This document shows positions 1 through 34,775 of a stretch of 34,775 nt of DNA, piece by piece. The stretch is taken from IMG/VR virus record IMGVR_UViG_3300045988_044299, one strand, 5' to 3'. Origin of the DNA: a virus. The translations under genes and the position numbers were made by a program. Position 1 is the stretch's first letter. Each line of letters begins with the position of its first letter. The notes under the pieces were generated by a model that did not search any database, was not told the DNA's origin, and saw only the letters and a program-made list of their open reading frames with translations.

Positions 1-141
1 TCATGGACGCCTATGAGCTGGATATGGCATACGGATCTGACGAGAACAACTTCACATGTACGATAGATCGTGCGAGCCATTGCTGCACAGAAGGTTTCTT
101 CCTGTACGTCGAAGGCGAGGAGTACGGCGGAATCGTCGACA
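1..141. repeat. Terminal overlap identical to 34635-34775; the contig closes into a 34,634-bp circle
   Basis: Direct comparison of the two ends gives 141/141 identity. The reading frame of the tail gene is continuous across the junction. Confidence 0.95.
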
Positions 142-3723: not shown

Positions 3724-4941
3724 ATGGGTAAATTATTGACGAATGAAGTAGGCTTGCAGATGCTGGAAGAAATGAGACGACAGACAGCCATTTCGGAAGC
3801 AACAGCAAGAGATCAGATCGCAGCACTTGCGTCGCAGATGTCGGCGATCGCTAAGATTGTAAGAGATGGATATGGCAACGTATTAATGGACATCGGTGAT
3901 CAGTTGAACATTGACTGGACAGACGGATCAAAAAGCTACAACGTGCCGCATGACATTGTGCATTTTGCAAACGTCGACCTGAAGAACGGAGACAAGGTTC
4001 CAGGCATGTATCTTCAGTGGCATTTCTGTTCACCGTTCGGTGTTCAGTTCGATGCAGCAGAAGCATTCTATTATGCAGAGACAGAGCTGGCAGCAGGAAC
4101 CTACAACATTATCGTAGGCGACAACTGGGGCAATAATTGCAAGAAAAACAAACAGTATCAGTTCACACTGAGCAAGCCAGTTCCAGCAGGCGGACAGATT
4201 GCAGGATTCTATTCAATGCCGGACAAGGCGGCAGCAGAGTGGACAGTACAGACATTCACAGACGCAAAGAGTACTACACCGATTGAGACAGTGAAACCGA
4301 CAGCCGGATCCAATGGAACAAACCTTGGTACATTGTCATTTGCTGGAGACGGAAAACTGAACAGCTTGCAGCGCGTAGCGTATGGGTACAACAGATGGAG
4401 TCAGTCAGCAATCAGACAGTATCTGAACAGCGCAAAGGCAGCAGGACAGTGGTGGGAACCACAGCACAAGTGGGACAGATCACCAGCAGAACTTGCGTCG
4501 AAGCCTGGATTTCTGTCAGGATATTCAGACGACTTCCTGAACGCGATCAAACCTGTGAGAGTTCGCACAGCATTGAATACGGTCACAGATGCAGCTGTAG
4601 GAGCCTACGAAGACACATACGACAAGATCTTCCTTGCATCATTAGAGCAGGAGTTCATCACACCACAGGCGTCAGGCGTTGAGGGAGAAGCCTGGGACTA
4701 TTGGAAGCAGGCTGTTGAACGCAGCACACCGACACCGTGGTATAAGACATTCGCAGAAGGAGGACACCCGATCACATACGGCATTGATGGAAAGACTTCG
4801 GCGCAGTACGTGCGGTTGCGCAGTGCGTACAGAGGCGGCGCGAGCAATACGTGGAATGTGAACGCGTCCGGCTACGTCTTCAGCGGCTACGTCACCGCAG
4901 TGAGCAGCCTTCGCTTCGCCCCGGCTTGCGTCATCTGCTAA
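3724..4941 (+). CDS. DGR target protein 1, putative receptor-binding protein with a C-terminal variable (C-type-lectin-fold-like) region
   Basis: The last ~45 codons match the template repeat except at TR adenines. The gene sits directly after BppU and directly before avd-TR-RT. Confidence 0.8.
   Translation: MGKLLTNEVGLQMLEEMRRQTAISEATARDQIAALASQMSAIAKIVRDGYGNVLMDIGDQLNIDWTDGSKSYNVPHDIVHFANVDLKNGDKVPGMYLQWHFCSPFGVQFDAAEAFYYAETELAAGTYNIIVGDNWGNNCKKNKQYQFTLSKPVPAGGQIAGFYSMPDKAAAEWTVQTFTDAKSTTPIETVKPTAGSNGTNLGTLSFAGDGKLNSLQRVAYGYNRWSQSAIRQYLNSAKAAGQWWEPQHKWDRSPAELASKPGFLSGYSDDFLNAIKPVRVRTALNTVTDAAVGAYEDTYDKIFLASLEQEFITPQASGVEGEAWDYWKQAVERSTPTPWYKTFAEGGHPITYGIDGKTSAQYVRLRSAYRGGASNTWNVNASGYVFSGYVTAVSSLRFAPACVIC
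4801..4930 (+). repeat. DGR variable region VR1
   Basis: Aligns to TR 5436-5559. Outside the AAC tract there are 10 differences, all at TR adenines. VR1 is 6 nt longer than the TR. Confidence 0.9.
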
Positions 4942-4955
4942 AGCCATCACATAAT

Positions 4956-4979
4956 CTCCGGCACCCACGGATGCCGGAG
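4956..4979 (+). promoter_or_regulatory. Hairpin 3' of VR1 (8-bp stem ctccggca/tgccggag, 8-nt loop cccacgga); candidate DGR target-recognition element
   Basis: Perfect inverted repeat with no T-run after it. The same geometry and the same loop core (ccacg) occur after VR2. Confidence 0.6.
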
Positions 4980-4996
4980 AGGAAAGGGAAAAAGAA

Positions 4997-5416
4997 ATGT
5001 CAGTACCGGAAGGGCAGAGAGGGAAAGGCAAGTTCACAGTGCTTACAAAAGCGAACATGCTAAGTATCTATACAATTAAAATCTGCTGCAATAAAAAGGT
5101 ATTCCTTCCAGAATATCAGCACGCACTTACAGACGACATCATTCGGACAGCGAAAGACATCTTCATGCACTGCTGGACGGCGAATAATATCAGAGTGGGA
5201 AAAGACGAAGAAAAACGGAAGGAACGAAGAAGACTTCAGGAGCAGGCAGCGAACGACTGCAACAATCTCCTGGCACTTATGCAGATGGCGCAGACTCTGT
5301 TCCATCTGAAACTAAAGAGGATTAAATACTGGGGAGAAAGGACGATAGAAGTCAGAACCCTGATAAGATCCTGGATTGAATCAGATACAAAACGCTACTC
5401 ACAAGAGCAGCGATAA
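4997..5416 (+). CDS. avd: Accessory variability determinant (Avd-like basic helical-bundle protein)
   Basis: 139-aa basic, helix-rich ORF in the canonical position between the target gene and the TR. The assignment rests on position and composition, not on a strong motif. Confidence 0.7.
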   Translation: MSVPEGQRGKGKFTVLTKANMLSIYTIKICCNKKVFLPEYQHALTDDIIRTAKDIFMHCWTANNIRVGKDEEKRKERRRLQEQAANDCNNLLALMQMAQTLFHLKLKRIKYWGERTIEVRTLIRSWIESDTKRYSQEQR

Positions 5417-5435: not shown

Positions 5436-5559
5436 GCGCAGAACGTGCGGTTGCGCAGTGCGAACAGAGGCAACGCGAACAATACGTGGAATGTGAACGC
5501 GTCCGGCAACGTCAACAACAACAACGCAGTGAACAGCAATCGCTTCGCCCCGGATTGCG
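5436..5559 (+). repeat. DGR template repeat (TR)
   Basis: 124 nt rich in AAC/AAT codons. It is homologous to VR1 (4801-4930) and VR2 (21728-21830) with mismatches only at its adenines. Its 3' end (attgcgcagat) diverges from the sequence shared by both VRs (cttgcgtcatc). Confidence 0.9.
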
Positions 5560-5722
5560 CAGATAAGTGGACGAGAAGCCACGCTGTAGGCGTGGTGTCT
5601 GCGAATGATAGACGCAAGGAGCCGAAATCCATGCCTGGAAACAGGCGAACAACACTGTCGTGATGCAAGATGCTTCAGCGAAGCATGGCGCTATATACGC
5701 GGCGGAAACAACAGAATAATAG
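5560..5722 (+). ncRNA. TR-to-RT spacer, probable structured part of the DGR RNA
   Basis: Three hairpins: 5579-5595 (ccacgc/gcgtgg), 5633-5646 (gcctg-GAAA-caggc) and 5670-5686 (atgcttc-agc-gaagcat). There is no credible ORF. Confidence 0.4.
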
Positions 5723-6874
5723 GTGAATTATATGGATGAAGACATCAAGGAGCAAGTGATCGGCTTCGAGGCGCTGTATAAATCAATGCACCGATGCAAG
5801 AAGAACGTGCTCTGGAAGGACTCTGCGGCGAGTTTCTATCTGAATGGGATAGAACAGGCGCTGAAGCTGGAAAAACAGCTGAAAGAAGGCACGTACAAGC
5901 CACGGCCGCCGAAGAAGTTCGAGATCACACATCCGAAAAGAAGAGAAGCTGTGAGCATAGCATTCAGGGATCGCGTGTACCAGAGATCATTGAACGACAA
6001 TGTGATATATCCAATTATGACACAATCGTTCATACATGCGAACATGGCCTGCCAGAAAGGGAAAGGAACGGATGCGGCGGAGAATCTGTTGGACGAGTTC
6101 CTGAAACACTGGTACAGGCTGCACGGCCTGGAAGGCTATGTCTTACAATGCGATATACGCGGATATTACCCAAACATGAGTCACAAAGTAGCAGAGGAGA
6201 CGTTCCGAAAGAAACTGCCTCCGGTGATCTACGAGATGACAGAAAAGATCCTTCGCGAACAGTATGAGGGAGAGAAGGGTTATAATCCGGGAAGCCAGAT
6301 GATCCAGATCGCAGGTATATCAGTCCTGGATCCAATGGATCACATGATAAAGGAGCAGCTTCACACGAAAGAGTTCGAGAGATACATGGACGACTTTCAA
6401 ATGTTTGGAGAGACTATCGAAGAATTGCAATGCCGCCGGAACGCAATAGAGGCATATCTGAACGAAAGAGAGTTCGAGCTGCATCCGAAGAAGACAAGGA
6501 TCTATCCAATCAAAGAAGGAATCAAGTTCCTGGGCTTCACGCACAGGCTGACGAGCACAGGAAAAGTTATCCGGATAATAGATCCGAACAATGTCAAGCA
6601 GGAGCGAAAGAAGCTCCGGCGCATGGTCGGTCTGGTGAAGAAGGGCCAGATGACCAGAAAGAAGGTTGACGAGTGCTTCAAGGCCTGGAAGGCACATGCT
6701 GCGAAAGGCAATTCCACAAAGCTGATCAACCGGATGAACAAATACTATGCAGATCTATGGAAGGAGGATCAGAAGCATGAGCATGACCATGACCAGAAGA
6801 AAGAGAACTGTGAAAGAACAGAGGGAAAGGGAAGACATGCAGGCACAGCTGGAGAAGCAGCAGGCGACACTTGA
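5723..6874 (+). CDS. DGR reverse transcriptase
   Basis: Contains the YMDDF catalytic motif, a GSQMIQIAG motif (the SQ signature of DGR RTs) and KGKGTDAA and FLGF motifs. It lies immediately downstream of the TR. The start could be GTG 5723 or ATG 5732. Confidence 0.9.
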   Translation: MNYMDEDIKEQVIGFEALYKSMHRCKKNVLWKDSAASFYLNGIEQALKLEKQLKEGTYKPRPPKKFEITHPKRREAVSIAFRDRVYQRSLNDNVIYPIMTQSFIHANMACQKGKGTDAAENLLDEFLKHWYRLHGLEGYVLQCDIRGYYPNMSHKVAEETFRKKLPPVIYEMTEKILREQYEGEKGYNPGSQMIQIAGISVLDPMDHMIKEQLHTKEFERYMDDFQMFGETIEELQCRRNAIEAYLNEREFELHPKKTRIYPIKEGIKFLGFTHRLTSTGKVIRIIDPNNVKQERKKLRRMVGLVKKGQMTRKKVDECFKAWKAHAAKGNSTKLINRMNKYYADLWKEDQKHEHDHDQKKENCERTEGKGRHAGTAGEAAGDT

Positions 6875-9692: not shown

Positions 9693-11084
9693 TCATAAAA
9701 AATTAATGTCCATGCTGCCGTCTTCATAGACTATAATAGATTCAACGAAAGACTTCCAGAAGACATTCTTTTCTGTTTTGCTGAAAGTACAATACATATC
9801 CTCCCAATTCTTAGAAAGCAGTTCCTGAACTGCGGAAAAATCACGAACGGGCGCAGATGGAACTTCGAGGCATTCTTTCAACTGGGCTTGCAGTTCATCA
9901 TACTTCTGTCTGTAAAGATCTTTTTCTATCAGATCATCAAGAAACAAATCATATAGTTTTTCTAATTTATGGCGGATCTTCGCTGCTTCGGCAGCAGGAT
10001 CCTTTTTTGATGCGCTGGAAGAAACGACATCATATTCAGCCATATAGCAAGAAAGCGCAGGACGAACATGATCGAGAAGATATTGTTCGATATATTCTTC
10101 CCGGTAAGTACGTGACCGATCGCAGAGCCGCGAGCTGGAATGATAGCCACAGCGATAGGAAACATAATCCTTGTGCGTGCCATCAGCAAGAGTATGCGGT
10201 ATAGTATAGGGAACGAGGTTATGCTGGCAACTGGAGCAGACGAGCAGACCAGTGAATATATAGTAACGTCTGGTTTTTCTCTGCCGGACGTTCTTTTTTG
10301 CAAGTTCAAGAAGATGATCGAAACGCTCCGGATCAATAAGCGGATCACAAAAATCAGGATCATCGCGGTACATGCCTTTATACAGAGGGTTCTTTAGTGC
10401 ACGGCTAACACCGTCATAACGAAGAAGAGGGCCGTATTTATTCGTAAGAAATTGAAAAGTGGAATAAATGCTGCCGCTGCTCTCAAAATGGTCAAACATA
10501 TCGAGCGCCCACTGTTTCCACTCCGGATCGTGAATGATATGCTTGTCAGCATCCAGCTTCAGGCCACGAGGAAGTCGACCGGATATATATGACTTGTTCT
10601 TTAGCTTATAAGCAAATACATCTTTTATACGATCGCTATCACGGTCACATTCGTCCTGAGCCACAGACAGACGGATATTGATATGCAGACGGCCGTTCGT
10701 CGTGGTAGTATCATAAGACTCAGTGATCGCCTTCCACTGTACACCGTTCACGTCGAGAATCTCCTGGATCTTGTGGTAGTCTCCGATATTACGGAACCAA
10801 CGGTCTAATTTTGTGAAGAGAATCATGTCAAAGGCATGAGCACGCACACCGTCCAGCAGGCGAACAAATTCTTTTCTTTTGGTATATCTTTTTCTGGCAG
10901 TCAGTGCTTCGTCCACGAAAGTGTCTACGAGCACCATATGATTCACTTCAATAAATTCATTCAGGAGCGTGTCCTGGGCTTCCAGAGTATCGCCATGCAG
11001 TACCTGACCTTCGTGGCTGCATCTTATGTATTTAACTACACGCAGGCCGTACAGTTCCGGCTGCGGATGAAAATATGTATTCAT
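9693..11084 (-). CDS. int: Large serine recombinase (phage integrase)
   Basis: N-terminal resolvase-type catalytic domain (YIRCSHEGQ), a recombinase domain, and a Cys-rich zinc-ribbon region (CSSCQHNL ... YRCGYH). ATG 11084 has an AGAAGG ribosome-binding site. The ORF track starts at GTG 11105. Confidence 0.9.
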   Translation of the reverse strand: MNTYFHPQPELYGLRVVKYIRCSHEGQVLHGDTLEAQDTLLNEFIEVNHMVLVDTFVDEALTARKRYTKRKEFVRLLDGVRAHAFDMILFTKLDRWFRNIGDYHKIQEILDVNGVQWKAITESYDTTTTNGRLHINIRLSVAQDECDRDSDRIKDVFAYKLKNKSYISGRLPRGLKLDADKHIIHDPEWKQWALDMFDHFESSGSIYSTFQFLTNKYGPLLRYDGVSRALKNPLYKGMYRDDPDFCDPLIDPERFDHLLELAKKNVRQRKTRRYYIFTGLLVCSSCQHNLVPYTIPHTLADGTHKDYVSYRCGYHSSSRLCDRSRTYREEYIEQYLLDHVRPALSCYMAEYDVVSSSASKKDPAAEAAKIRHKLEKLYDLFLDDLIEKDLYRQKYDELQAQLKECLEVPSAPVRDFSAVQELLSKNWEDMYCTFSKTEKNVFWKSFVESIIVYEDGSMDINFL

Positions 11085-11303
11085 AAAAAACCTTCTTTCT
11101 AACACAGAACCCTGAAAAGGGTATAAAAAATAAAGCTATGCAGCAACACAGCTTTATGCTAGAATAGAGGGTGTGATCCGTGTCTGTTCTTGGCGTAAAG
11201 CTGTGGAGCATAGACACATGAGAAGGGGCAGTCGTTGACGCGGCTGTCCTTTTTCATATTTTGACGAGATATGTGCATCCTACACTACACAGGAGGAAAG
11301 CAC

Positions 11304-13799: not shown

Positions 13800-13987
13800 T
13801 GGCAAGAACAAAGAAAAGCGGCTTCCGAAGATGTCCGATCTGTGGACACCACGCTGATCGGAAAGACATGCGGTACACGACAGACGCAAACGGGATCCGG
13901 TGCAGACTGGTCTGCTGGGACTGCTACGATCAGATCATGGTGAAAGGCTATGACGATGCAGACGTGAACGAAGGCTATGAATATTAA
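13799..13987 (+). CDS. Small Cys-rich (zinc-ribbon-like) protein
   Basis: Contains CPICG ... CRLVCWDC. Its start overlaps the previous stop (TAATG). Confidence 0.55.
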   Translation: MARTKKSGFRRCPICGHHADRKDMRYTTDANGIRCRLVCWDCYDQIMVKGYDDADVNEGYEY

Positions 13988-14002
13988 GCGAAGGGCACAG
14001 GA

Positions 14003-14332
14003 ATGGCAATCAAAAGAACGGTAGAAACAGACGTTTACTGCGATGTGTGTGGCGAGTGGATCATAGGCTGGAGATCCAACGACCAGGGAACCAGCAAACT
14101 ATGGGCGGCATATTTTGCAAGAAAAAAAGGCTGCACAGTTGGGGAAAAGGTTATATGCAAAAAGTGCAGGATCAAGAAGCGGATCCAGACATGCAGCATA
14201 CAGCGAAAAATCGGAAGTGCAGGAAGGGACAGCGATGGAAGCTGCATGGGATTCGGAAGCGAAACATCAGACGAGCCACTGGAGAAGTGCAAACGGTGTA
14301 TTGCGTGCACATCTTACCAGTGGAAAGAATAG
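14003..14332 (+). CDS. Cys-rich hypothetical protein
   Basis: Contains CDVCG ... CKKC ... CKRCIAC motifs. Confidence 0.55.
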   Translation: MAIKRTVETDVYCDVCGEWIIGWRSNDQGTSKLWAAYFARKKGCTVGEKVICKKCRIKKRIQTCSIQRKIGSAGRDSDGSCMGFGSETSDEPLEKCKRCIACTSYQWKE

Positions 14333-14346
14333 TTCAAAGGATAGAA

Positions 14347-14409
14347 GCCGAAACGGTCAGCAATGACCGTCCACCGGAGATAACCTCCCGGTGCTGACGA
14401 TGGCAGGTT
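14347..14409 (+). ncRNA. Type II hammerhead ribozyme, copy A (predicted cleavage after C14371)
   Basis: Order of elements: GCC, GAAA, stem III (cggtca-gcaa-tgaccg), U, C (GUC site), stem I (caccgg ... ccggtg), CUGACGA, U, GGC. The stem I loop aacct can pair with aggtt at 14405-14409. Confidence 0.8.
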
Positions 14410-14806: not shown

Positions 14807-14882
14807 GGAAAGAACAGGGACATCATGAAAGACTATGACAATGCAGATATGAACAAAGATTACGAATATTAAGGAGGGCAAC

Positions 14883-15239
14883 ATGTTTATTTTATCACAG
14901 AACAAAGAGAAGCTGTACAACCTGTCCGGACACATTGAAGGAATCGGGTACGAAGAGACAAAGGAGTATGTCAAAGGAAAGAAGGAAGACAAGATCAGAC
15001 ACACACTCATGGTGTATGACGGATGCTGTGAAGAAGTAGCAGAGTACGAAACAAAAGAGGATTGTATGCTGATCCTGTATGCGGTCTTCAAAGCAATGGA
15101 ACAGGGAGAGAATGCACTGGAGCTTCCAACACAGGAAGAAACGGCCAAACAGAAGGAACTTATGAAACAGGTTATTGAAGCAGGCGGCGAGATCGCAAAA
15201 GAAGCGACGGAGTTGCTGAAGGAAATGTTCAAAGGATAG
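14883..15239 (+). CDS. Hypothetical protein (118 aa)
   Basis: ORF with an AAGGAGGG ribosome-binding site. Its last codons overlap the conserved 5' flank of hammerhead B. Confidence 0.6.
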   Translation: MFILSQNKEKLYNLSGHIEGIGYEETKEYVKGKKEDKIRHTLMVYDGCCEEVAEYETKEDCMLILYAVFKAMEQGENALELPTQEETAKQKELMKQVIEAGGEIAKEATELLKEMFKG

Positions 15240-15241
15240 AA

Positions 15242-15314
15242 GCCGAAACGGGGCACAGGCCCCGTCCGGTCACGATGGCAACGTGATCGCTGACGATGGC
15301 AAGCTGAAAGCCAT
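15242..15314 (+). ncRNA. Type II hammerhead ribozyme, copy B (predicted cleavage after C15266)
   Basis: Order of elements: GCC, GAAA, stem III (cggggc-acag-gccccg), U, C, stem I (cggtcacg-atggcaa-cgtgatcg), CUGACGA, U, GGC. The stem I loop atggc can pair with gccat at 15310-15314. Confidence 0.8.
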
Positions 15315-18277: not shown

Positions 18278-19567
18278 ATGGCAGCAGGCTGGAGCGTTAT
18301 GGACGCACTGAACAGAAACAGCAAGGCAGCGGCAGAGGATAAGCCGCGAGCAAGGTTCCGTACAAAGGACATCAGCATCAGGAAGATGTACAGCAACGAT
18401 CGGAACTTCTACAGCATGAACGGCATAGAAAAGCTGGCACAGGAGATCTTGACAGTCGGACTCCTGGAGAACATGACAGTCATGTATGCGCCGTGTGAGC
18501 GTGGAGAGTACCGGATCATAGCAGGGGAAAGACGATGGAGAGCATTGCAGCTCCTGCTGAAGAAAGGCTATGAAGAGTTTGAGATCGCAACATGCCAGAT
18601 CAAGAGCGTAGCGGAAGAACACGAAGAAATGGTCAACATCATCATGGCAAACGCATACCGCGATAAGACTATGGCGGATCTGCTCCAGGAAGAGCAGCAG
18701 CTGAGAAAGTCACTCCAGTACATGAAGGACAACGGCTTGACACTTCAAGGCTATACACTGGACAGCGGACGCCTTCGTGATGTGATCGCTTCGATCATGC
18801 AGATGTCGGGAACGAAGATCGCACAGATCGACTCCATCAATGAGCGACTGATCCCTGAGTTCACGGAGCAGCTGAAAGAAGGACGACTGACATTCAGTGC
18901 AGCGTATGAGATCAGCGGCATGGATCAGGAACAGCAGCAGGACATGCTGGAGAAGAGTCAGGAGTCCGGCGGGCTGACTTGGAAAGAAGTGAAAGAAGCA
19001 AAGGCAGCGGCAGAAGAACCAGAAGAGCCGGAAGAAGCAGAGAGACAGGAACCGGAGCAGGAAGAAACAACAAAACCAGGAGACGACTATGAGACGCCAC
19101 ATCCGGAAGGGATCACGTCGATCTGCTACGGATGCAGCAGGTATCTGGAGTGCAACGTGAAGACATCGACCTGCACCAGCTGCGACCAGTACATAGACAA
19201 GAAAGAAGCTGAGAAAACAGAACAGCAGCGTTATGACGAAGAGCAGGCGGCAATCGACAGAGAAACAAAGAGAAAGCTGCAAGAGCGAGAGCAGGAAGAG
19301 AAGATGCAGCATCTTCCTTCAGACGACAAGAAAAAAACGATCCGGCTGTCCTGCGATGCGTTCGACCGGATCAGAAACAAGACACAGACCTTCCTGATCG
19401 TGAAGTCCACAGAGATCAGCGAAAGCAGTACGATCATAGCGATGGAGTTCAGAGAGGGCAGGGCGACAGGAGAGCAGATGCAGCTGAGAGTGAACCACCT
19501 GGAAGACAGCAGCACATCGTCGGCACTGGTAGATGGCTACTGTGTTATCGGGATAGAAGAAGCATAG
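18278..19567 (+). CDS. parB: ParB-like protein with an extended acidic linker, a Cys-rich segment and an extra C-terminal domain
   Basis: ParB N-terminal domain with the IAGERRWRA arginine box. It lies directly downstream of parA. Confidence 0.85.
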   Translation: MAAGWSVMDALNRNSKAAAEDKPRARFRTKDISIRKMYSNDRNFYSMNGIEKLAQEILTVGLLENMTVMYAPCERGEYRIIAGERRWRALQLLLKKGYEEFEIATCQIKSVAEEHEEMVNIIMANAYRDKTMADLLQEEQQLRKSLQYMKDNGLTLQGYTLDSGRLRDVIASIMQMSGTKIAQIDSINERLIPEFTEQLKEGRLTFSAAYEISGMDQEQQQDMLEKSQESGGLTWKEVKEAKAAAEEPEEPEEAERQEPEQEETTKPGDDYETPHPEGITSICYGCSRYLECNVKTSTCTSCDQYIDKKEAEKTEQQRYDEEQAAIDRETKRKLQEREQEEKMQHLPSDDKKKTIRLSCDAFDRIRNKTQTFLIVKSTEISESSTIIAMEFREGRATGEQMQLRVNHLEDSSTSSALVDGYCVIGIEEA

Positions 19568-19580
19568 GGAGGAAGGAAGA

Positions 19581-20027
19581 ATGAAACTGAACAAGATCAC
19601 GGAATGGATCAAGAAGCAGATCACAAGACATAAGAATAACAGCGGACAGATTGACCGGGATCCGGAGCGACTGCCTACGTTCGTGTCGAAACGAATGAAC
19701 CTGCCAGTCGGAGCGAAGGAAGCGGCCGAAAAGAAAATAAAAATTGACTGCACTGTAAGTTCATATAATGCCAGCACAGACGAAATAGCAAAGGCACTGG
19801 AGAAACTGGGGAAAGTAGGGTATACGATAGGCGAGAAGGAAGGAACACAAAAGGAACAGCCTATGAGCAACAATCGCCGCAAGATGAAAGGGATCCCGAT
19901 GATCAGACGGCAGCAGCTGAGAAGAGCACAGAGGAATCGGAGAAAAAAGACGAACGGCTGGCAGCAGTTGGGAGAGAGAAAGTATTGGAACCAGGAGGAG
20001 AACGCATGGTATACACACAAGCAGTGA
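19581..20027 (+). CDS. Hypothetical basic protein containing a 66-bp copy of a terminase-large-subunit segment
   Basis: ORF with a GGGAGGAAGG ribosome-binding site. 19661-19726 is about 94% identical to 24395-24460. Confidence 0.5.
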   Translation: MKLNKITEWIKKQITRHKNNSGQIDRDPERLPTFVSKRMNLPVGAKEAAEKKIKIDCTVSSYNASTDEIAKALEKLGKVGYTIGEKEGTQKEQPMSNNRRKMKGIPMIRRQQLRRAQRNRRKKTNGWQQLGERKYWNQEENAWYTHKQ

Positions 20028-20383
20028 GACGCGGAGACATATATTACATAAACAACGATCGCGGACAGATCGGCAGCGAAATGAAGAAGGATCGTCCGGC
20101 GGTGGTCGTGTCGAATGACATGAACAACCGATATAGCAATGAGATCACGGTGGTGTTCCTGACATCAAAACCGAAGAAGAACCTGGAAACACATGTCACA
20201 GTCTACAGTACAGGGCGCGAGTCGGTCGCCCTGTGTGAAGGAATGACAACACTGGACAAGCAGAGGACAGGGAAGTTCCTGGGAAGAATGAGCAGAAAAG
20301 AGATGGACGCTATCGACAAGGCACTGGGCGTTGCGATCGGAATAGACCGGAAAGAAGAGGGGGGGGGACATGATGGTGGATAA
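20006..20383 (+). CDS. MazF/PemK-family toxin (endoribonuclease)
   Basis: Matches the family pattern: RGDIYYI ... GSEMKKDRPAVVVSND ... ITVVFLTS ... THV ... LDKQR. AGGAGGAG lies 5 nt upstream of ATG 20006. Confidence 0.85.
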   Translation: MVYTQAVRRGDIYYINNDRGQIGSEMKKDRPAVVVSNDMNNRYSNEITVVFLTSKPKKNLETHVTVYSTGRESVALCEGMTTLDKQRTGKFLGRMSRKEMDAIDKALGVAIGIDRKEEGGGHDGG

Positions 20384-20507
20384 AAGAGCCAGCCCGAAAG
20401 ACTGGAAGGAAGAAGCAATCAGAGAAACAGCAAAAGCAGAGACTTACAGAGCAATGTATGAGACGTTGCTGAACAAAATCATTCAGGGAGGACAGACAGA
20501 TGTATGA
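20370..20507 (+). CDS. Small hypothetical protein (45 aa), possible toxin partner
   Basis: The ATGATG start overlaps the toxin stop region, immediately after a G9 tract. It is below the ORF-track cut-off. Confidence 0.35.
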   Translation: MMVDKRASPKDWKEEAIRETAKAETYRAMYETLLNKIIQGGQTDV

Positions 20508-20685
20508 AGCATGGGAGAACATGAAGCTGCTGCTGATGGCATCAGGAGGCGCGATCCTGTGGATTGTCATGGTGCTGGTAGCGGTCGGCCTGGTACTGGC
20601 AGCAGCTATCATCATCACGCTGACAGTGAAGGAACTGAAAGCACAGCACAAGAGAAACAAGAAGGGAGGACACCGGAATGAATAA
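20500..20685 (+). CDS. Small transmembrane protein (61 aa)
   Basis: GGGAGGA ribosome-binding site. One long hydrophobic segment is followed by a basic tail. Confidence 0.5.
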   Translation: MYEAWENMKLLLMASGGAILWIVMVLVAVGLVLAAAIIITLTVKELKAQHKRNKKGGHRNE

Positions 20686-21106
20686 GGTGATCCTGATGGG
20701 GCGATTGACCAGAGATCCGGACGTGAGATACACACAGGGCGAGGAGCCTATGGCAATCGCCAGATTCACACTTGCAGTAGACAGACGAGGCAAGAGGGAC
20801 GGAGAAGCAAGTGCAGACTTTCCTTCCTGCGTATGCTTCAGACGGACAGCAGAGTTCATCGAGAAGTATGCACACCAGGGAACGAAGCTGGTAGTTGTGG
20901 GAAGGATTCAGACGGGAAGCTACACGAACCGGGACGGACAGAAAGTATATACGACAGATGTGGTCGTGGAAGAAGCAGAGTTCGCGGAGAGCAAGGCGGC
21001 AGCAGATCGGAACGCACAACAGACACCACAACCATCACCAGACACAGGAGCCGACGGCTTTATGAACATACCGGACGGAATCGAAGAAGAGCTTCCGTTC
21101 GATTAG
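20678..21106 (+). CDS. ssb: Single-stranded DNA-binding protein
   Basis: OB-fold N-terminus (MNKVILMGRLTRDPDVRYT), a flexible P/Q-rich linker and an acidic tip (EEELPFD). Confidence 0.9.
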   Translation: MNKVILMGRLTRDPDVRYTQGEEPMAIARFTLAVDRRGKRDGEASADFPSCVCFRRTAEFIEKYAHQGTKLVVVGRIQTGSYTNRDGQKVYTTDVVVEEAEFAESKAAADRNAQQTPQPSPDTGADGFMNIPDGIEEELPFD

Positions 21107-21115
21107 GAGACAACG

Positions 21116-21856
21116 ATGGAAGACAGATGCGTGATGTGTGGCGAAATCATACCGGAGGGAAGAATGGTGTGTCCGGTATGCGAAGAAAGAGTATTGACCA
21201 GAAAAGGAGAACAGACAATGAAAGCGAGAACAATCAGAGAAACAGAGTACACATGGGAGCAGATCGAGGAGATCTTGGCAGCAGGTAAGGCAAGAGAAAC
21301 ATTCGGAGAAGATGGACAGATCACAGTCCAGGTCGAAGGAATTGGAACGGCCCTGTTGAATATCCTGGACTACGACAAGGACAAGGCTGCGGATCCGGAC
21401 ATGCGAACAATGACATTGCAGTTTGCAGATCTTCCGTTCGATGAAATGCCATTCGATGAAAACGGCTGTAACAAATGGGAGAAGTCCAGCATTCGCAGAA
21501 ACATGAACAGCATCGCCTTCAAGGAGAGATTCGAGGAAGGGTTCAGAAGACTCCTGGTTCCTGTGCTGAAGGAGAACGGAGACAGAGAGGCAACACTGGA
21601 CACGTTCTTCCTTCTGTCCGTGGAAGAAATGAAGGACGAAGAAAAGAAGTACCAGCGGTTCAGATCAGAACGCGACTGCGTGAAAGTCAATCCGGAGCAG
21701 GAGACAGAGTGGCACTGGACAAGATCCGCGTACAGAGGCACCGCGTACGATACGTGGAATGTGTACGCGTCCGGCTACGTCTACGACTACTACGGCGCAG
21801 TGTACAGCGGTCGCTTCGCCCCGGCTTGCGTCATCGGAGCGAAAGCAATCAAATAA
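21116..21856 (+). CDS. DGR target protein 2: N-terminal CxxC-CxxC zinc-ribbon-like segment plus a C-terminal variable domain
   Basis: The C-terminus (WTRSAYRGTAYDTWNVYASGYVYDYYGAVYSGRFAPACVIG) matches the TR except at adenines. An alternative internal start exists at MKARTIRE with an AAAGGAGA ribosome-binding site. Confidence 0.8.
   Translation: MEDRCVMCGEIIPEGRMVCPVCEERVLTRKGEQTMKARTIRETEYTWEQIEEILAAGKARETFGEDGQITVQVEGIGTALLNILDYDKDKAADPDMRTMTLQFADLPFDEMPFDENGCNKWEKSSIRRNMNSIAFKERFEEGFRRLLVPVLKENGDREATLDTFFLLSVEEMKDEEKKYQRFRSERDCVKVNPEQETEWHWTRSAYRGTAYDTWNVYASGYVYDYYGAVYSGRFAPACVIGAKAIK
21728..21830 (+). repeat. DGR variable region VR2
   Basis: Aligns to TR 5460-5559. Outside the AAC tract there are 10 differences, all at TR adenines. 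VR2 is 3 nt longer than the TR. Confidence 0.9.
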
Positions 21857-21859
21857 TCA

Positions 21860-21879
21860 GCGCCCGCCACGCAGGGCGC
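21860..21879 (+). promoter_or_regulatory. Hairpin 3' of VR2 (6-bp stem gcgccc/gggcgc, 8-nt loop gccacgca)
   Basis: It has the same spacing from the conserved ataatc motif, the same loop length and the same ccacg core as the VR1 hairpin. No T-run follows. Confidence 0.55.
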
Positions 21880-21903
21880 AGGAGAACGAAAGGAGAAAAG
21901 AAC

Positions 21904-22134
21904 ATGGGACTGATGGATGCAATCACAGCAGAGGACAGAGTACAACTGAAAGTGTCGGATCTGGAGACACTGATGAAGAACGCGGCAAAGGCAGACCTGA
22001 TCTTCAACGGGATCAGAGCAGAAGTGCCGCACAGATACATGAGAGAGATCATCACAGGAAAGAAGGAGGAGGATGCAGACGAAACGAAAGCCAGAGAAAA
22101 AACAGGAGAGCAGGAACACGAAACCACAGACTAA
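21904..22134 (+). CDS. Hypothetical protein (76 aa)
   Basis: AAAGGAGAAAAG ribosome-binding site before ATG 21904. The upstream part of the long track ORF 21475-22134 overlaps target 2 out of frame and is not credited. Confidence 0.5.
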   Translation: MGLMDAITAEDRVQLKVSDLETLMKNAAKADLIFNGIRAEVPHRYMREIITGKKEEDADETKAREKTGEQEHETTD

Positions 22135-22210
22135 ACCAGTCAAGTGTCGGGGGTGCTTCGGGGCATCCTTCGGTGACTGCGATAGGTGTCAGAAAGAAAG
22201 GAGATAAGAC

Positions 22211-22564
22211 ATGCCAAACGTGCGACCACTGAACAAACGCTACGGAATCAGCAAGCACGCGTTCCTGACGGCATACTCATATTGCCATCAGTACAGAGAA
22301 TGGCACAAGGCGCTGACCAGTGGAGCACGCGAGGACGACCACGGAAGCAGCGTCACAGAGATCGAGGAGAAGATCCGGAAGATCGAGAACACAGTGGCGG
22401 AGGCAGTGCAGGATTATCCTGCACTTTATCCGTTTATGCTGGAGTATGTCACGGAGGAAGGAACAACCTTCCAGCAGATGCAACAGAAGGGAATACCATG
22501 CGGCAGCACGCTGTTCTATACGCTGCGCCGACGCTTCTACTTCCTGATGTCGGGGAGAATATAA
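22211..22564 (+). CDS. Putative late-gene transcriptional regulator (ArpU/RinA-position protein)
   Basis: 117-aa ORF immediately upstream of the HNH-terminase block with an AAAGGAGA ribosome-binding site. The call rests mainly on position and size. Confidence 0.45.
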   Translation: MPNVRPLNKRYGISKHAFLTAYSYCHQYREWHKALTSGAREDDHGSSVTEIEEKIRKIENTVAEAVQDYPALYPFMLEYVTEEGTTFQQMQQKGIPCGSTLFYTLRRRFYFLMSGRI

Positions 22565-22618
22565 GTGCGTCACTCACAGGACAAGGAAAACGGTACGATG
22601 AACATACCGGAAAGAAGG

Positions 22619-22653
22619 AGAACCCTGGAACAAACCGGGGTTCTTTTTCTTTT
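22619..22653 (+). terminator. Rho-independent terminator
   Basis: 10-bp stem agaaccctgg/ccggggttct (one G-U pair) with loop aacaaa, followed by TTTTCTTTT. Confidence 0.75.
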
Positions 22654-22661
22654 GCCTGGAG

Positions 22662-23069
22662 GTGGAGAGATTGAAACAAGATGAACTGAAGAACTGGATC
22701 GAGGAGCTGATCCGTGAGGGACAGCTGTGGAAATTCTACAAGTCGAAGGAGTGGATCACACTGAAGGAAGAAGTCCTGAAGGAAAACCACTACGAATGTG
22801 CTGAGTGTAGGAAGACCGGGAAGATCACACGATACGACGTGGACGAGAACGGAAACAAGAAGCTGATCAGCACAGTGCATCATGTGCAGTTCGTGCGGAA
22901 GCATCCGGCGCTTGCACTGAGTAAGACATACACCTTCGAGGGCAAGACGTACAGGAACCTGATGCCAGTGTGCAAGGCGTGCCACAACAAGCTGCACCCG
23001 GAAAAACGAAGACGAAGGAACAGATCGCAGGAGAACGACGACAGATATGTGAACGAAGAAAGATGGTAA
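22662..23069 (+). CDS. HNH endonuclease (terminase-associated)
   Basis: Contains CAEC ... VHHV ... NLMPVCKACHNKLH. The start could be GTG 22662 or TTG 22671. Confidence 0.85.
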   Translation: MERLKQDELKNWIEELIREGQLWKFYKSKEWITLKEEVLKENHYECAECRKTGKITRYDVDENGNKKLISTVHHVQFVRKHPALALSKTYTFEGKTYRNLMPVCKACHNKLHPEKRRRRNRSQENDDRYVNEERW

Positions 23070-23169
23070 CACCCCCCACCACCCCGTAGCCCCTTCCTGA
23101 AGGGGAAACCAACAACGGGAAGGGGGCACGACAAAAAAGCTACGCGCGCATACGCGAGGAAAAAGTGAG

Positions 23170-23490
23170 GTGATGGATATGGCAGCTAAATCAGAGAAGG
23201 CGATCAGGGAGTCACTGATGACACAGCTGAGAGCAAAGGGAGCAGACGTGTCGCACTTTGAGGGACTGGTGGACGATTATGTCGAGTATTTCCGCCTGGT
23301 CAAGAAGATGAAAGCCGACATCAAGAAGCGCGGCCTGTCCTACACTGCAACGTCTGCCGCCGGAAAAGAGTACGAGAAAGACAACCCGAACGTGAAGCTG
23401 TTACCGCAGTACACCAGGGCAATGCTGACGATCCTGAAAGACCTGGGACTAACGACGGATAAGGTCGCAGAGGAAGACATCGAGCTGTGA
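23170..23490 (+). CDS. terS: Terminase small subunit (P27-family-like)
   Basis: ~100-aa ORF directly upstream of and overlapping terL, with the KEYEKDNPNVKLL pattern. Alternative starts are ATG 23173 and ATG 23179. Confidence 0.75.
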   Translation: MMDMAAKSEKAIRESLMTQLRAKGADVSHFEGLVDDYVEYFRLVKKMKADIKKRGLSYTATSAAGKEYEKDNPNVKLLPQYTRAMLTILKDLGLTTDKVAEEDIEL

Positions 23491-25154
23491 CAGACATCAG
23501 CAGGATTCCGGAGATCCAGGACTGGATCGACATTGTTGAAAACGACACATACAAGTGCAGCAAAGATCAAAAATTGCTTGTAAAACACGTGAAAAAGTGC
23601 TTCAAAAACGAAAAAATTCACGTCAATACAGAGCAGTTGTCGAAATATATGCACATTGCGAAAGAGTATGTGCCGTTCGACCTTTTTCCGTGGCAGAAGT
23701 TCATCATCGCCCTGCATGACTGTACATATTGGGACGACAGTGGGATGCCGCGATGGCCGGATTTGTTCGCTATGTTAGGGCGTGGAGCAGGCAAGGACGG
23801 AACGATCGCCGTTGAAGCGTTCTGCCTGACATCACCGTACAACGGAATCAGAGAGTACGACGTGGACATCTGTGCCAACAACGAAGAGCAGGCCATGCGT
23901 CCGGTGCAGGATCTGACCGGATTTTTCGAGGAACCGAAGATTCTGCGTAAGATCAAAAAGTTTTACGACTGGACAAAGGAAAAGATCACATGCAGCAAGA
24001 CAAAGAGCACAGTCAAAGGACGAACCAACAGCCCGAAGGGCAAGGATGGCCTGCGTTCTGGCATCGTGATCTTCAACGAGATTCACCAGTATGAGAACTA
24101 CGACAACATAAACGTTTTTACGACCGGACTGGGAAAGAAAGAACACCCACGCCGGAGCTATTACACGACGAACGGAGACGTGCGAGAGGGGCCGCTGGAC
24201 GACCTTCTGGAAGATGCAGAGGGCATCTTGCAGGGAGAAGAAGACGACAACGGTCTGCTGCCGTTTGTCTGCCGCCTGGATAGCAAAAAAGAGGTTGACG
24301 ACGAGGCAAACTGGACAAAAGCAAACCCGTCATTGCCATACCTGCCGAACCTTCTGGCTGAAACCAGGAAAGAGTACAGGGAGTGGAAGAAGAATCCGGA
24401 GCGACTGCCTGCGTTCATGTCGAAACGAATGAACCTGACAGCCGGAGCGAAGGAAGCGGCGGTCACTTCCTGGGAAAACATCAAGGCAACGAACAAAGAA
24501 CTGCCGGAACTGAAAGGCTGGAGCTGCACTGTCGGGATTGACTACATGAAGACGTCCGACTTTGCAGCAGTGAACTTCCACTTCAAGGACGGAGACAAGC
24601 GATACGACATCAATCACGCCTGGATCTGTTCAGCATCGAAAGACATTCCGCGGATCAAGGCTCCGTGGCGTGAGTGGGTGAAGAAGGGACAGCTGGAGTA
24701 TGTGGACGACATCGAGATCCACCCGTCTGTAATTGCGAACTACATCGCAGAGACAGGGAAGAAGTATTCGATCGCTATGGTTGCGATAGATAACTACAGA
24801 TATTCTCTGTTATCTGACGCGCTGGCACGTGCCGGGATCTCAAAAGAGCACGGAAACCTGATACTTGTGAAGCAGACGGACATCATCACAGTGGTTCCGA
24901 TCATAGACCACTGCTTCTTGAACCAGTATTTTCACTGGGGCGATGATCCAGTGCTGAGATGGGCGACCAATAACACGAAGGTGATCCGGTACGGACGGCA
25001 GCAGGGAGCAGACAAGGGTTCATTCGTGTACGCAAAGATCGAGGCACGAAGCAGAAAGACGGATCCATTCATGGCACTGGTGGCGTCAATGGTTCCGGAA
25101 TCAAAGATAAAAGAACGACCGAAGGTCAGAAAGGTCAGAACGATAACACTATAG
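23487..25154 (+). CDS. terL: Terminase large subunit
   Basis: 555 aa. Walker-A-like GRGAGKDG, followed by a nuclease half. The GTGA start overlaps the terS stop. Confidence 0.9.
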   Translation: MTDISRIPEIQDWIDIVENDTYKCSKDQKLLVKHVKKCFKNEKIHVNTEQLSKYMHIAKEYVPFDLFPWQKFIIALHDCTYWDDSGMPRWPDLFAMLGRGAGKDGTIAVEAFCLTSPYNGIREYDVDICANNEEQAMRPVQDLTGFFEEPKILRKIKKFYDWTKEKITCSKTKSTVKGRTNSPKGKDGLRSGIVIFNEIHQYENYDNINVFTTGLGKKEHPRRSYYTTNGDVREGPLDDLLEDAEGILQGEEDDNGLLPFVCRLDSKKEVDDEANWTKANPSLPYLPNLLAETRKEYREWKKNPERLPAFMSKRMNLTAGAKEAAVTSWENIKATNKELPELKGWSCTVGIDYMKTSDFAAVNFHFKDGDKRYDINHAWICSASKDIPRIKAPWREWVKKGQLEYVDDIEIHPSVIANYIAETGKKYSIAMVAIDNYRYSLLSDALARAGISKEHGNLILVKQTDIITVVPIIDHCFLNQYFHWGDDPVLRWATNNTKVIRYGRQQGADKGSFVYAKIEARSRKTDPFMALVASMVPESKIKERPKVRKVRTITL

Positions 25155-30741: not shown

Positions 30742-30950
30742 GAAACGGAAGAAGCATCAAACTTCCAAAATTTGAACTATATGAAATTGAGGACTACTAC
30801 ACATTTTACGTCATCATCATGGAAATTCCGGAGAGTACGTTCTGGGAAAACGATCTGCGGTTCCTGGATGCAGTCCTGAGAAACAAGGCTGCATATGACA
30901 GATGGATGCGGTACGCGATAGAGAAGGAGGGAGAACGGCGTGGCAAATAA
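30699..30950 (+). CDS. gpT-like -1 frame extension of the tail assembly chaperone (G-T fusion 30385-30699 plus 30699-30950)
   Basis: The -1 frame translates as TEFAAAFEKAAKRIGNGRSIKLPKFELYEIEDYY ... AYDRWMRYAIEKEGERRGK. It has no independent start or ribosome-binding site. Confidence 0.7.
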   Translation, partial: TEFAAAFEKAAKRIGNGRSIKLPKFELYEIEDYYTFYVIIMEIPESTFWENDLRFLDAVLRNKAAYDRWMRYAIEKEGERRGK

Positions 30951-34601: not shown

Positions 34602-34775
34602 TATATGCGGATGCACACAGAGTAGATCAGGGCGTCATGGACGCCTATGAGCTGGATATGGCATACGGATCTGACGAGAACAACTTCACATGTACGATAG
34701 ATCGTGCGAGCCATTGCTGCACAGAAGGTTTCTTCCTGTACGTCGAAGGCGAGGAGTACGGCGGAATCGTCGACA
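34592..34775 (+). CDS. 5' part of the Tal-position tail protein; continues at base 3 after circular closure
   Basis: ATG 34592 overlaps the Dit stop (ATGGATCTGA). The frame is continuous with 3-1781 through the duplicated 141 bp. Confidence 0.7.
   Translation, partial: MDLIYADAHRVDQGVMDAYELDMAYGSDENNFTCTIDRASHCCTEGFFLYVEGEEYGGIVD
34635..34775. repeat. Second copy of the 141-bp terminal overlap
   Basis: Identical to 1-141. Confidence 0.95.

What the first reader, a model, noticed from the sequence alone, without database searches (positions are those of the whole stretch)
21116..21879. Second, remote DGR variable region in an early-region zinc-ribbon protein
VR2 (21728-21830) lies 16.8 kb from the cassette, at the C-terminus of a 246-aa ORF between ssb and the late regulator. 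This is not the structural module.
- It matches TR 5460-5559 with 10 substitutions outside the AAC tract, all at TR adenines.
- It shares with VR1 the same non-TR 3' sequence (cttgcgtcatc).
- The protein has an N-terminal CxxC ... CxxC segment and no obvious signal peptide or virion-protein features.

A hypervariable lectin-fold protein encoded among early genes suggests a diversified intracellular or non-virion binder. It might act against a variable host or competitor factor. This is not the usual tail-fibre role.
Basis: partly seen in the sequence, partly recalled or inferred. Interest (0 to 1): 0.8.

Follow-up and report, generated by a model that had tools for sequence, protein, structure and literature searches.

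The report
Remote second DGR target, early-region module
A gut phage's mutagenic retroelement rewrites a small binding protein encoded among its early genes as well as its tail-fibre-like protein; the layout is real and recently active, but it has already been reported in other gut phages and the small protein's job is still unknown.

Summary
VR2 (21728-21830) matches TR 5460-5559. Outside the AAC tract, 9 of 23 TR adenines differ and 0 of 59 other bases (Fisher test computed, value never printed), plus the A-to-C change in the 3' motif. VR2 shares VR1's non-TR 3' end and has its own GC hairpin (21860-21879).

Related metagenomic genomes show it is a live or recently live target:
- 22 distinct VR2 alleles differ at 209/506 adenine sites against 23/1298 other sites.
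- One relative's TR carries two non-adenine changes, and both its VR1 and its VR2 carry them.

The product is a DUF6273 (C-type-lectin-like) protein, a 28%-identical paralogue of the VR1 target. It lies directly after ssb and upstream of HNH and terminase.

The zinc ribbon is an accessory N-terminal fusion; most orthologues start at Met35. The "late regulator" label has no support.

The gene (ribosome-binding site to hairpin) is a self-contained module, 84-96% identical in phages with unrelated virion genes. Several of these lack any DGR.

The large-plus-small DUF6273 pair with a remote early-region VR is already described for Toutatisvirus, Lelie/CP11 and Shimadzu. This is a new member of a known kind. 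A non-virion role is plausible but untested.

The parts
21116..21856 (+). Small DGR target gene (246 aa as the longest ORF; 212 aa if started at Met35, 21218)
   Evidence: ORF list. Pfam DUF6273 6.4e-11, aa 115-222. AlphaFold model with mean pLDDT 90.5. 139 homologues.
21116..21217 (+). N-terminal zinc-ribbon extension (CxxC-x10-CxxC), an accessory in-frame fusion
   Evidence: Sub-threshold DZR_2 match. Absent from L005, L007 and L212-type orthologues. The same segment heads free-standing small proteins elsewhere. Local BFVD matches to zinc-ribbon proteins (ranks 29-31).
21203..21893 (+). Minimal conserved module: ribosome-binding site of Met35, coding sequence, 3' recognition sequence and hairpin
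   Evidence: blastn boundaries in unrelated backbones: 21203-21884/21907 in L005, L007 and L084; 21045-21893 in L021, L001 and L038. It is the only high-identity stretch shared with contig 110516.
21728..21830 (+). VR2, the variable repeat
   Evidence: Alignment to TR 5460-5559. Outside the tract, 9/23 adenines are changed against 0/59 other bases.
21812..21835 (+). IMH-like 3' end: GC-rich CGCTTCGCCCCGG followed by CTTGCGTCATC, which differs from TR
   Evidence: Identical in VR1 (4912-4935). TR has ATTGCGCAGAT.
21860..21879 (.). GC hairpin/cruciform 24 nt after the 3' motif (stem GCGCCC/GGGCGC, loop GCCACGCA)
   Evidence: Fold and scan. Compensatory GTGCCC/GGGCAC in relatives; different stems with a similar loop at VR1 and in distant homologues.
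5436..5560 (+). Template repeat (TR)
   Evidence: Repeat family D2/D5. Identical in 3 related contigs, with 2 non-adenine changes in a fourth.
5723..6874 (+). DGR reverse transcriptase
   Evidence: Pfam RVT_1 2e-13; phrog_1423 3e-75.
4997..5416 (+). Avd accessory protein
   Evidence: phrog_3206 'Avd protein of DGR' 1e-11.
3724..4941 (+). Large DGR target (405 aa, DUF6273) carrying VR1 (4801-4935), downstream of baseplate and tail genes
   Evidence: Pfam DUF6273 2.4e-12. VR1 has 8/23 adenines changed and 0/59 other bases. The upstream gene has a Gp10_C baseplate domain.
4955..4980 (.). Hairpin after VR1 (stem TCTCCGGCA/TGCCGGAGA, loop CCCACGGA)
   Evidence: Fold z-score -2.7; hairpin table.
20678..21106 (+). 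ssb, ending 10 nt before the small target gene
   Evidence: Pfam SSB 4e-28; phrog_44 9e-47.

Best explanation
VR2 is a functional second target, diversified now or recently, of the phage's single diversity-generating retroelement.

**Mechanism.** This part is inferred from the Bordetella phage BPP-1 model.
1. TR RNA is copied by the Avd/RT complex into adenine-mutagenised cDNA.
2. The cDNA replaces any DNA in the cell that offers three things: TR homology, the GC-rich/IMH-type 3' end, and a nearby GC hairpin.
3. VR2 offers all three, so it is rewritten in trans about 16 kb from the cassette.

**Product.** The target is the small member of a large-plus-small pair of DUF6273 (C-type-lectin-like) binding proteins. 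About 13 AAY-templated codons on its C-terminal beta-hairpin are randomised.

**The gene as a module.** The stretch from ribosome-binding site to hairpin is a self-contained module. It sits in the early operon right after ssb and is exchanged among phages with unrelated virions.

**Likely role.** I therefore think the protein acts independently of virion architecture, as a soluble binder made in the infected or lysogenic cell. I do not think it is a docked tail component. Its ligand is unknown.

**Confidence by layer.** Genuine DGR target: about 0.95. Virion-independent binder: about 0.55.
For: **Adenine-specific TR/VR2 pattern and shared 3' end.**

**Cassette present.** Avd and RT are identified.

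**Hairpins.** Both VRs have a hairpin 19-24 nt downstream. Stems differ but loops are similar, and relatives show compensatory stem changes. This matches the target requirements set out by Guo et al. 2011.

**Variation across relatives**
- Protein variation is confined to adenine-templated codons.
- At nucleotide level, 209/506 adenine sites vary against 23/1298 other sites.
- One 90%-identity protein cluster holds 1446 distinct sequences.
- In contig 3300045988_014808 the TR changes AAT ACG to AAC ACC, and both changes appear in its VR1 and its VR2.
- Eight same-backbone genomes carry eight different VR2 alleles.

**Fold.** DUF6273, with a confident model.

**Early-region position.** Kept in orthologues of 45-96% identity, next to SSB, RecT, methylases and an Apyc1-like gene.

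**Module shared across backbones.** It is 84-96% identical in backbones whose TerL, portal and capsid proteins are 0-37% identical.

**Other.** The N-terminus has no hydrophobic stretch (sequence). No + strand terminator-like site was found between 17 and 24 kb.
Against: - No read-level, transcript or proteome data exist for this genome, so present-day activity and expression timing are inferred.
- Both VRs have longer AAC tracts than TR (18 and 15 nt against 12). Simple full-length homing from the present TR does not explain that.
- Upstream homology before the first variable codon is only 3-4 nt. BPP-1 work reports that 8 bp or more is needed for 5' integration.
- Most phage DUF6273 proteins and most phage DGR targets are tail, receptor-binding or decoration proteins. 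The prior therefore favours a surface or virion role.
- Published authors guess that the small targets are receptor-binding proteins.
Confidence: 0.6

Rival explanations
1. The small DUF6273 protein is a virion-associated accessory receptor-binding or adhesion protein. It is encoded away from the structural genes, joins the particle or acts with the VR1 tail protein, and is diversified for host range or mucus adherence.
For: DUF6273 domains are common in phage tail-fibre, receptor-binding and Hoc-like proteins. The authors who described the Toutatisvirus and nd4/nd12 small targets propose Mtd-like receptor binding. The protein uses the same TR as the tail-associated VR1 protein.
Against: - It has no N-terminal anchoring domain. 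It is a single globular domain plus an optional zinc ribbon.
- The gene is always in early regions.
- The protein is 84-96% identical in phages whose packaging, head and tail genes are unrelated, so there is no conserved docking partner.
Confidence: 0.3
2. VR2 in this particular genome is a fossil. It was diversified in the past, or acquired by recombination already diversified, but is no longer rewritten.
For: - Orphan copies exist in phages with no RT, Avd or TR. Single alleles persist there across many samples.
- The L007-type orthologue has lost the hairpin, and one protein sequence recurs on 13 contigs.
- The VR2 tract length differs from TR.
- Lelie and CP11 showed no read-level signal in culture.
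Against: - In this genome the RT, Avd, TR, 3' motif and hairpin are all intact.
- Every genome of the same backbone has a different VR2.
- A sister genome shows TR-to-VR2 transfer of non-adenine changes.
Confidence: 0.1
3. The TR/VR2 similarity is ordinary paralogy between two DUF6273 genes and not retroelement-mediated transfer.
For: The two target proteins are paralogues.
Against: - The proteins are only 28% identical. Yet the 100-nt block matches at 59/59 non-adenine bases outside the AAC tract, with every difference at an adenine.
- The homology boundary is sharp, with different codons for the same residues just upstream.
- The TR lies in non-coding DNA between avd and RT.
Confidence: 0.01

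Closest known systems
Toutatisvirus (Faecalibacterium phage FP_Toutatis) DGR with two DUF6273 targets (Egorov et al., bioRxiv 10.1101/2024.10.15.618418)
   Same: - One Avd-TR-RT cassette next to the tail genes.
- A large DUF6273 target beside it.
- A second, small DUF6273 gene of unknown function about 17.5 kb away, with the VR at its C-terminus.
- The small target is a core gene that is kept even where the DGR is absent.
- In NC_047915 the small gene gp24 lies among early genes.
   Different: - The phages are unrelated: a myovirus of Faecalibacterium against an HK97-type siphovirus-like genome, probably of Lachnospiraceae.
- The small proteins share only family-level similarity.
- In Toutatis the large target is downstream of the RT and carries an Ig-like domain.
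- Toutatis has no zinc ribbon.
[quoted passage not shown]
   Same: There are two VRs per DGR. Both targets are DUF6273 with the VR at the domain's C-terminus. Adenine-specific variation appears at both VRs across cognate genomes. Function is stated as unknown.
   Different: The hosts and genomes differ. That study did not analyse module mobility, orphan copies or the hairpin.
Roseburia phage Shimadzu VR2 in orf43/44 (bioRxiv 10.1101/575076)
   Same: It is a Lachnospiraceae phage whose DGR targets a tail gene plus a second gene of unknown function. Both VRs were shown to be modified in virion reads and in mice.
   Different: It is a Lagaffe-like myovirus. I did not compare the orf43/44 sequence, so homology to this small target is not tested.
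Bordetella phage BPP-1 DGR (mtd/avd/TR/brt) and its target-recognition rules (PMC3240598)
   Same: It shows adenine mutagenesis, a 3' end that differs between VR and TR, a GC-rich element, and a GC hairpin 4-34 bp downstream whose stem sequence is free but whose loop is constrained.
   Different: - BPP-1 has a single target adjacent to the cassette.
- Mtd is a trimeric tail-fibre tip with anchoring domains.
- The BPP-1 loop is a 4-nt GRNA. Here it is an 8-nt loop, (G/C)CCACG(C/G)A.
nd4/nd12 gut phage tgt2 proteins (Baykov et al. 2023, PMC10743442)
   Same: They are small (234-294 aa) DUF6273-only DGR targets with a C-terminal VR beta-hairpin on a C-lectin-like domain. They are partnered with a larger DUF6273 target on the same TR.
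   Different: I did not establish where the two target genes lie relative to the cassette in nd4/nd12. The partner there is a tentaclin with an N-terminal VR.

Membership tests
DGR variable repeat (mutagenic retrohoming target) | TR/VR pair whose differences fall at TR adenines | tested here: met
   Outside the AAC tract, 9/23 adenines are changed against 0/59 other bases (the Fisher test run was never printed). Across 22 alleles the counts are 209/506 against 23/1298.
DGR variable repeat (mutagenic retrohoming target) | Cognate reverse transcriptase and accessory protein next to the TR | tested here: met
   RT 5723-6874 (RVT_1; phrog_1423 3e-75). Avd 4997-5416 (phrog_3206). DGR-clade RT motifs were not examined.
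DGR variable repeat (mutagenic retrohoming target) | 3' end with a GC-rich element and a short sequence that differs between VR and TR (IMH against IMH*) | tested here: met
   CGCTTCGCCCCGG is followed by CTTGCGTCATC in both VRs and by ATTGCGCAGAT in TR.
DGR variable repeat (mutagenic retrohoming target) | GC-rich hairpin/cruciform within about 4-34 bp downstream | tested here: met
   Hairpin at 21860-21879, 24 nt after the motif. There are compensatory stem changes, and unrelated stems at VR1 and in distant homologues. The loop differs from the BPP-1 GRNA consensus.
DGR variable repeat (mutagenic retrohoming target) | Ongoing diversification in the population | tested here: met
   Met between genomes and metagenomes, including TR-to-VR2 transfer of non-adenine changes. 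Read-level variation within this phage population is not testable with these tools.
DUF6273 (PF19789), C-type-lectin-like DGR target domain | Significant match to the Pfam model, with the VR at the domain's C-terminus | tested here: met
Zinc-ribbon protein (DZR_2 and similar) | Match above the curated threshold; four Cys ligands; conserved across orthologues | tested here: inconclusive
   The four Cys are present (C5, C8, C19, C22). The Pfam score is 19.3, below the cut-off of 27, and NCBIfam matches are all far below cut-off. The segment is absent from most orthologues.
Virion structural or receptor-binding protein | Encoded in the structural module, or similar to a known virion component, or detected in particles | tested here: not met
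   The gene is in the early region. The only PHROG match is phrog_9958, of unknown function. No structural neighbour is conserved across backbones. Presence in particles is not testable here.
   There is no Pfam, NCBIfam or PDB match. The only PHROG match is phrog_11237, of unknown function.

The most novel reading that the evidence does not exclude
The small DUF6273 gene is a portable, virion-independent hypervariable binder made in the infected or lysogenic cell. It might recognise a variable host or competitor factor, such as a defence component.

The module carries its own recognition elements (3' motif plus hairpin). Copies in phages that lack a DGR could therefore be rewritten in trans by a DGR-bearing phage in the same cell. 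That would make it a shared diversification target across otherwise unrelated phages.
Probability: 0.25. Interest if true: 0.8.

Novelty: new member of a known kind. Interest (0 to 1): 0.42.

Why it matters
DGRs are the only known natural system of targeted protein hypermutation outside adaptive immunity. In phages they are usually read as host-range devices acting on tail fibres.

A second, small target recurs in early regions, travels between unrelated phages with its own recognition elements, and survives where the DGR is missing. That points to a diversified binding function that does not depend on the particle.

This lineage is common in human-gut metagenomes: one 90%-identity cluster holds 1446 protein variants. 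It would be a convenient system for asking what such a protein binds. It would also allow a test of whether one phage's DGR can rewrite targets on another.

The basic layout is already published, so the value lies in the comparative detail and the testable hypotheses, not in a new class of element.

Tried and rejected
- **Close relatives in GenBank phages.** Megablast of 20000-23500 and of 1-25000 against GenBank phages (INPHARED) found nothing. tblastn found only two unannotated human-faecal phage records, at 51% and 33% identity.
- **Toutatis gp24.** Profile comparison with it gave only a weak VR-region match (probability 42%), so I claim family-level similarity only.
- **PDB fold search.** It gave one significant match, the DUF6273 N-terminal domain of the Thomasclavelia ramosa IgA peptidase. 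The paper assigns that domain no binding role.
- **Late regulator.** I looked for support for 22211-22564 in Pfam, NCBIfam, PHROGs and PDB sequences and found none.
- **Promoter and terminator scan.** It gave nothing above shuffled expectation on the + strand, so expression timing could not be assigned.
- **Cognate TR in other contigs.** Two exact-pattern scans for a TR in the other IMG/VR contigs that carry VR2 each found only four contigs. I then walked three contigs end to end and confirmed that RT, Avd, TR and VR1 are absent from 89-96% of their length. The unread 4-11% leaves a small loophole.
- **Hairpin as terminator.** Rejected, because no T-run follows it on the + strand.
- **Failed scripts.** One search had a regex register error, a syntax error, and a time-out.

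Full report
**What the window is.** Bases 1-141 are identical to 34635-34775. The window is therefore one complete, circularly closed or terminally redundant genome of 34,634 bp.

Nearly all genes are on the + strand:
- serine integrase, 9693-11105, on the minus strand
- early genes: ParB-like 18278-19567, MazF-like toxin 19985-20383, SSB 20678-21106
- HNH 22662-23069, small terminase 23170-23490, large terminase 23487-25154, then head genes
- tape measure 30940-33771
- after the wrap-around, tail and baseplate genes; 1785-2849 has a Gp10_C domain
- a 405-aa DUF6273 protein at 3724-4941, Avd at 4997-5416, a non-coding template repeat at about 5436-5560, and a reverse transcriptase at 5723-6874
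- an endolysin at 7887-9350 with glucosaminidase, CW_7, CHAP and SH3 domains

The lysin and the genome-collection hits (Lachnospiraceae and Lachnoclostridium MAGs) point to a Gram-positive gut host. GenBank phages hold no close relative.

**Checking the observation.** The 246-aa ORF 21116-21856 exists. VR2 21728-21830 aligns with TR 5460-5559.
- Outside the AAC tract, 9 of 23 TR adenines differ and none of 59 other bases. A Fisher test on these counts was computed, but the script stopped on a later error before printing it, so I report no P value.
- Both VRs end in CTTGCGTCATC where TR has ATTGCGCAGAT.
- The homology boundary is sharp. The Arg-Ser-Ala before VR2 is encoded AGA TCC GCG, and TR encodes the same residues as CGC AGT GCG.
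- The two target proteins are otherwise only 28% identical.

This is what overwriting by TR-derived cDNA predicts. Ordinary paralogy does not predict it.

**Target-recognition elements.** BPP-1 work defines a functional VR by three features: a GC-rich/IMH 3' end, a GC-rich hairpin 4-34 bp downstream whose stem sequence is free but whose loop matters, and upstream homology (Guo et al. 2011).
- VR2 has CGCTTCGCCCCGG plus the VR-specific 11-mer. A hairpin follows 24 nt later at 21860-21879 (stem GCGCCC/GGGCGC, loop GCCACGCA).
- VR1 has a hairpin 19 nt downstream with an unrelated stem (TCTCCGGCA/TGCCGGAGA) and a similar loop (CCCACGGA).
- In relatives the VR2 stem changes in a compensatory way (GTGCCC/GGGCAC).
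- Homologues at 42-45% protein identity (L213, L214) have yet other GC stems at the same distance, and the 62%-identity L212 homologue shows one on inspection of the sequence.
- No T-run follows the hairpin on the + strand, so it is not a terminator for the gene.

**Is VR2 alive?** I could not look at reads, so I used related genomes.
- The protein has 139 homologues. Many are 84-96% identical, and one 90%-identity cluster holds 1446 distinct sequences.
- In protein alignments the body is nearly invariant. Variation sits at residues 206, 209, 211, 212, 215, 217, 221, 223-227, 230 and 232, which are the AAC/AAT-templated codons.
- At nucleotide level, 22 distinct VR2 alleles from IMG/VR and other contigs differ from this TR at 209 of 506 adenine sites and 23 of 1298 other sites.
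- The TR is identical in three related contigs. In contig 3300045988_014808 it carries two non-adenine changes (AAT ACG to AAC ACC). Both that genome's VR1 and its VR2 (TAC CCC TGG) carry them. This is direct evidence that TR information reaches the remote VR2 in this lineage.
- Eight genomes share this backbone, at 95-98% identity over 19500-23500 or with an RT and virion proteins 91-100% identical to the window's apart from the tape measure. They have eight different VR2 alleles.

**The protein.**
- Pfam places residues 115-222 in DUF6273.
- An AlphaFold model built on 67 homologues is confident (mean pLDDT 90.5).
- It matches predicted DUF6273 proteins of gut phages (E down to 1e-20) and one solved structure, the DUF6273 N-terminal domain of a Thomasclavelia IgA peptidase.
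- The N-terminus has no hydrophobic stretch.

**The zinc ribbon.** The CxxC-x10-CxxC segment (aa 5-22) scores below Pfam's threshold.
- Most orthologues are 211-212 aa and start at Met35, which has its own AAAGGAG ribosome-binding site.
- In L005, L007 and L212 there is no room upstream for the ribbon.
- MEDRCVMCGE... also heads free-standing 45-160 aa proteins in other phages.

The ribbon is therefore an in-frame fusion limited to one sub-clade. It does travel with the module there.

**Context and mobility.** Orthologues of 45-96% identity always lie in early regions:
- after SSB (window, L212)
- next to PcfJ, YopX and methylase genes (L001, L005, L007)
- next to RecT, a DNA methylase and an Apyc1-like gene (L213)
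- as a tandem pair after a repressor and a methylase (L214)

The module's boundaries are sharp. They are 21203-21884/21907 in the more distant backbones and 21045-21893 in closer ones, running from the Met35 ribosome-binding site to just past the hairpin.

The protein is 84-96% identical in phages whose terminase, portal, protease and capsid proteins are 0-37% identical to the window's. The module is the only high-identity stretch shared with contig 110516.

Five such contigs, read over 89-96% of their length, have no RT, Avd, TR or VR1. In these DGR-less backbones single VR2 alleles recur: one allele occurs on seven contigs in two different backbones. The L007-type copy has lost the hairpin, and its protein recurs unchanged on 13 contigs. 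Turnover therefore seems to go with the cassette, although the sample is small and not phylogenetically controlled.

**How it most likely works.** These points are shown:
- the adenine-specific pattern
- the shared recognition elements
- TR-to-VR2 transfer in a sister genome
- the early-region, module-like nature of the gene

This is inferred from BPP-1: Avd/RT makes mutagenised cDNA from TR RNA. Homing needs only the 3' motif, the hairpin and homology, so a copy 16 kb away is rewritten in trans. Thirteen AAY codons alone allow about 15^13, or roughly 2e15, peptides. That figure is my arithmetic on the TR sequence.

The role of the protein is not shown. Nearly the same protein serves phages with unrelated particles. 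It also lacks an anchoring domain and an export signal. On that basis I favour a virion-independent binder at about 0.55, over a docked receptor-binding accessory at about 0.3. An intracellular target such as a defence component is possible. The only support for it is the neighbourhood of methylase and anti-defence-like genes.

**Comparison with what is known.** The layout is published.
- Toutatisvirus phages have a Hoc-like DUF6273 target by the cassette and a second DUF6273 gene of unknown function 17,480 nt from the TR. That gene is present in 98.8% of genomes, while the DGR is present in 68%. In NC_047915 the gene (gp24) lies among early genes.
- Faecalibacterium phages Lelie and CP11 have "large and small" DUF6273 targets.
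- Roseburia phage Shimadzu has a second VR in a gene of unknown function, and reads show both VRs being modified.
- Baykov et al. describe small DUF6273-only targets.
- A 2026 preprint argues that a DGR-diversified DUF6273 protein of Mushuvirus acts outside particles.

The window is thus a new member of a known kind, in an unrelated phage lineage. This analysis adds five things: the module boundaries, the spread across unrelated backbones, the orphan and hairpin-less copies, the covarying hairpins, and the tracked non-adenine changes.

**Unexplained.**
- Both VRs in the window have longer AAC tracts than the TR (VR1 18 nt, VR2 15 nt, TR 12 nt). Relatives have 12 or 15. All extra codons are NNC, which fits slippage on the AAC repeat during cDNA synthesis or a later TR contraction.
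- The first variable codon of VR2 is only 3-4 nt inside the homology boundary. That is shorter than the 8 bp or more reported for 5' integration in BPP-1.

**Verdict.** The finding is real and biologically interesting, but it is not a new kind of system.

Noticed in passing
window 4892-4909 (VR1), 21782-21796 (VR2), 5514-5525 (TR): The AAC tract differs in length: TR has 4 AAC codons, VR2 has 5 NNC and VR1 has 6 NNC. Relatives with the same 12-nt TR tract have VR tracts of 12 nt, and 15-nt VR2 tracts occur in relatives whose TR was not seen. This suggests RT slippage on the repeat or a later TR contraction.
   Followed up: partly
window 1-141 and 34635-34775: There is an exact 141-bp terminal direct repeat, so the window is one complete circular or terminally redundant genome of 34,634 bp.
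   Followed up: yes
IMG/VR contigs 3300045988_110516, _105803, _003891, _012407 and 3300029135_000359 (loci L021/L098/L178, L022/L181, L035/L106/L195, L036/L161/L210, L038/L182): Orphan VR2 modules with an intact 3' motif and hairpin occur in phages that show no RT, Avd, TR or VR1 over 89-96% of the contig. Identical VR2 alleles recur across samples and across two different backbones.
   Followed up: partly
L007-L010, just after the DUF6273 gene (e.g. L007 about 4335-4376): This orthologue (P0045) has lost the downstream hairpin, and its exact protein sequence is found on 13 contigs. It is probably a dead target.
   Followed up: partly
L214 2689-3324 and 3379-4014: Two small DUF6273 genes lie in tandem in an early region. 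The first has the 3' motif and a hairpin. The second lacks a hairpin and has an A-rich VR-equivalent region.
   Followed up: no
window 19660-19726 and 24394-24460: A 67-nt segment is repeated at 94% identity. One copy is inside the large terminase gene and the other is in the 148-aa ORF 19581-20027 upstream of the MazF-like toxin (peptide ERLP.F.SKRMNL..GAKEAA). The same pair appears in relatives.
   Followed up: no
window 19985-20383: A MazF/PemK-like toxin gene (Pfam 4e-26) lies in the early operon, overlapping the preceding ORF. No antitoxin was identified.
   Followed up: no
window 32633-33028: There are five tandem copies of a 66-nt unit (listed as overlapping 132-nt copies, 61-98% identical to the reference copy) inside the tape-measure gene.
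   Followed up: no
window 13936-13988 / 14821-14873 and 14323-14356 / 15218-15251: Two pairs of direct repeats (81% and 91% identical) lie about 890 nt apart in the early region. This suggests a duplicated pair of small ORFs.
   Followed up: no
window 7516-7877: Apart from the VR2 module, weak ssb similarity and the VR2-derived matches to VR1 and TR, this is the only stretch with nucleotide similarity (75-76%) to the otherwise unrelated contigs 110516 and 003891. It lies in the 143-aa ORF before the endolysin, which may be a holin.
   Followed up: no
L213 12511-13245: An Apyc1-like metallo-beta-lactamase-fold gene (weak anti-Pycsar Pfam hit) and a DNA methylase lie next to a distant small DUF6273 homologue. 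This is an anti-defence-type neighbourhood.
   Followed up: no
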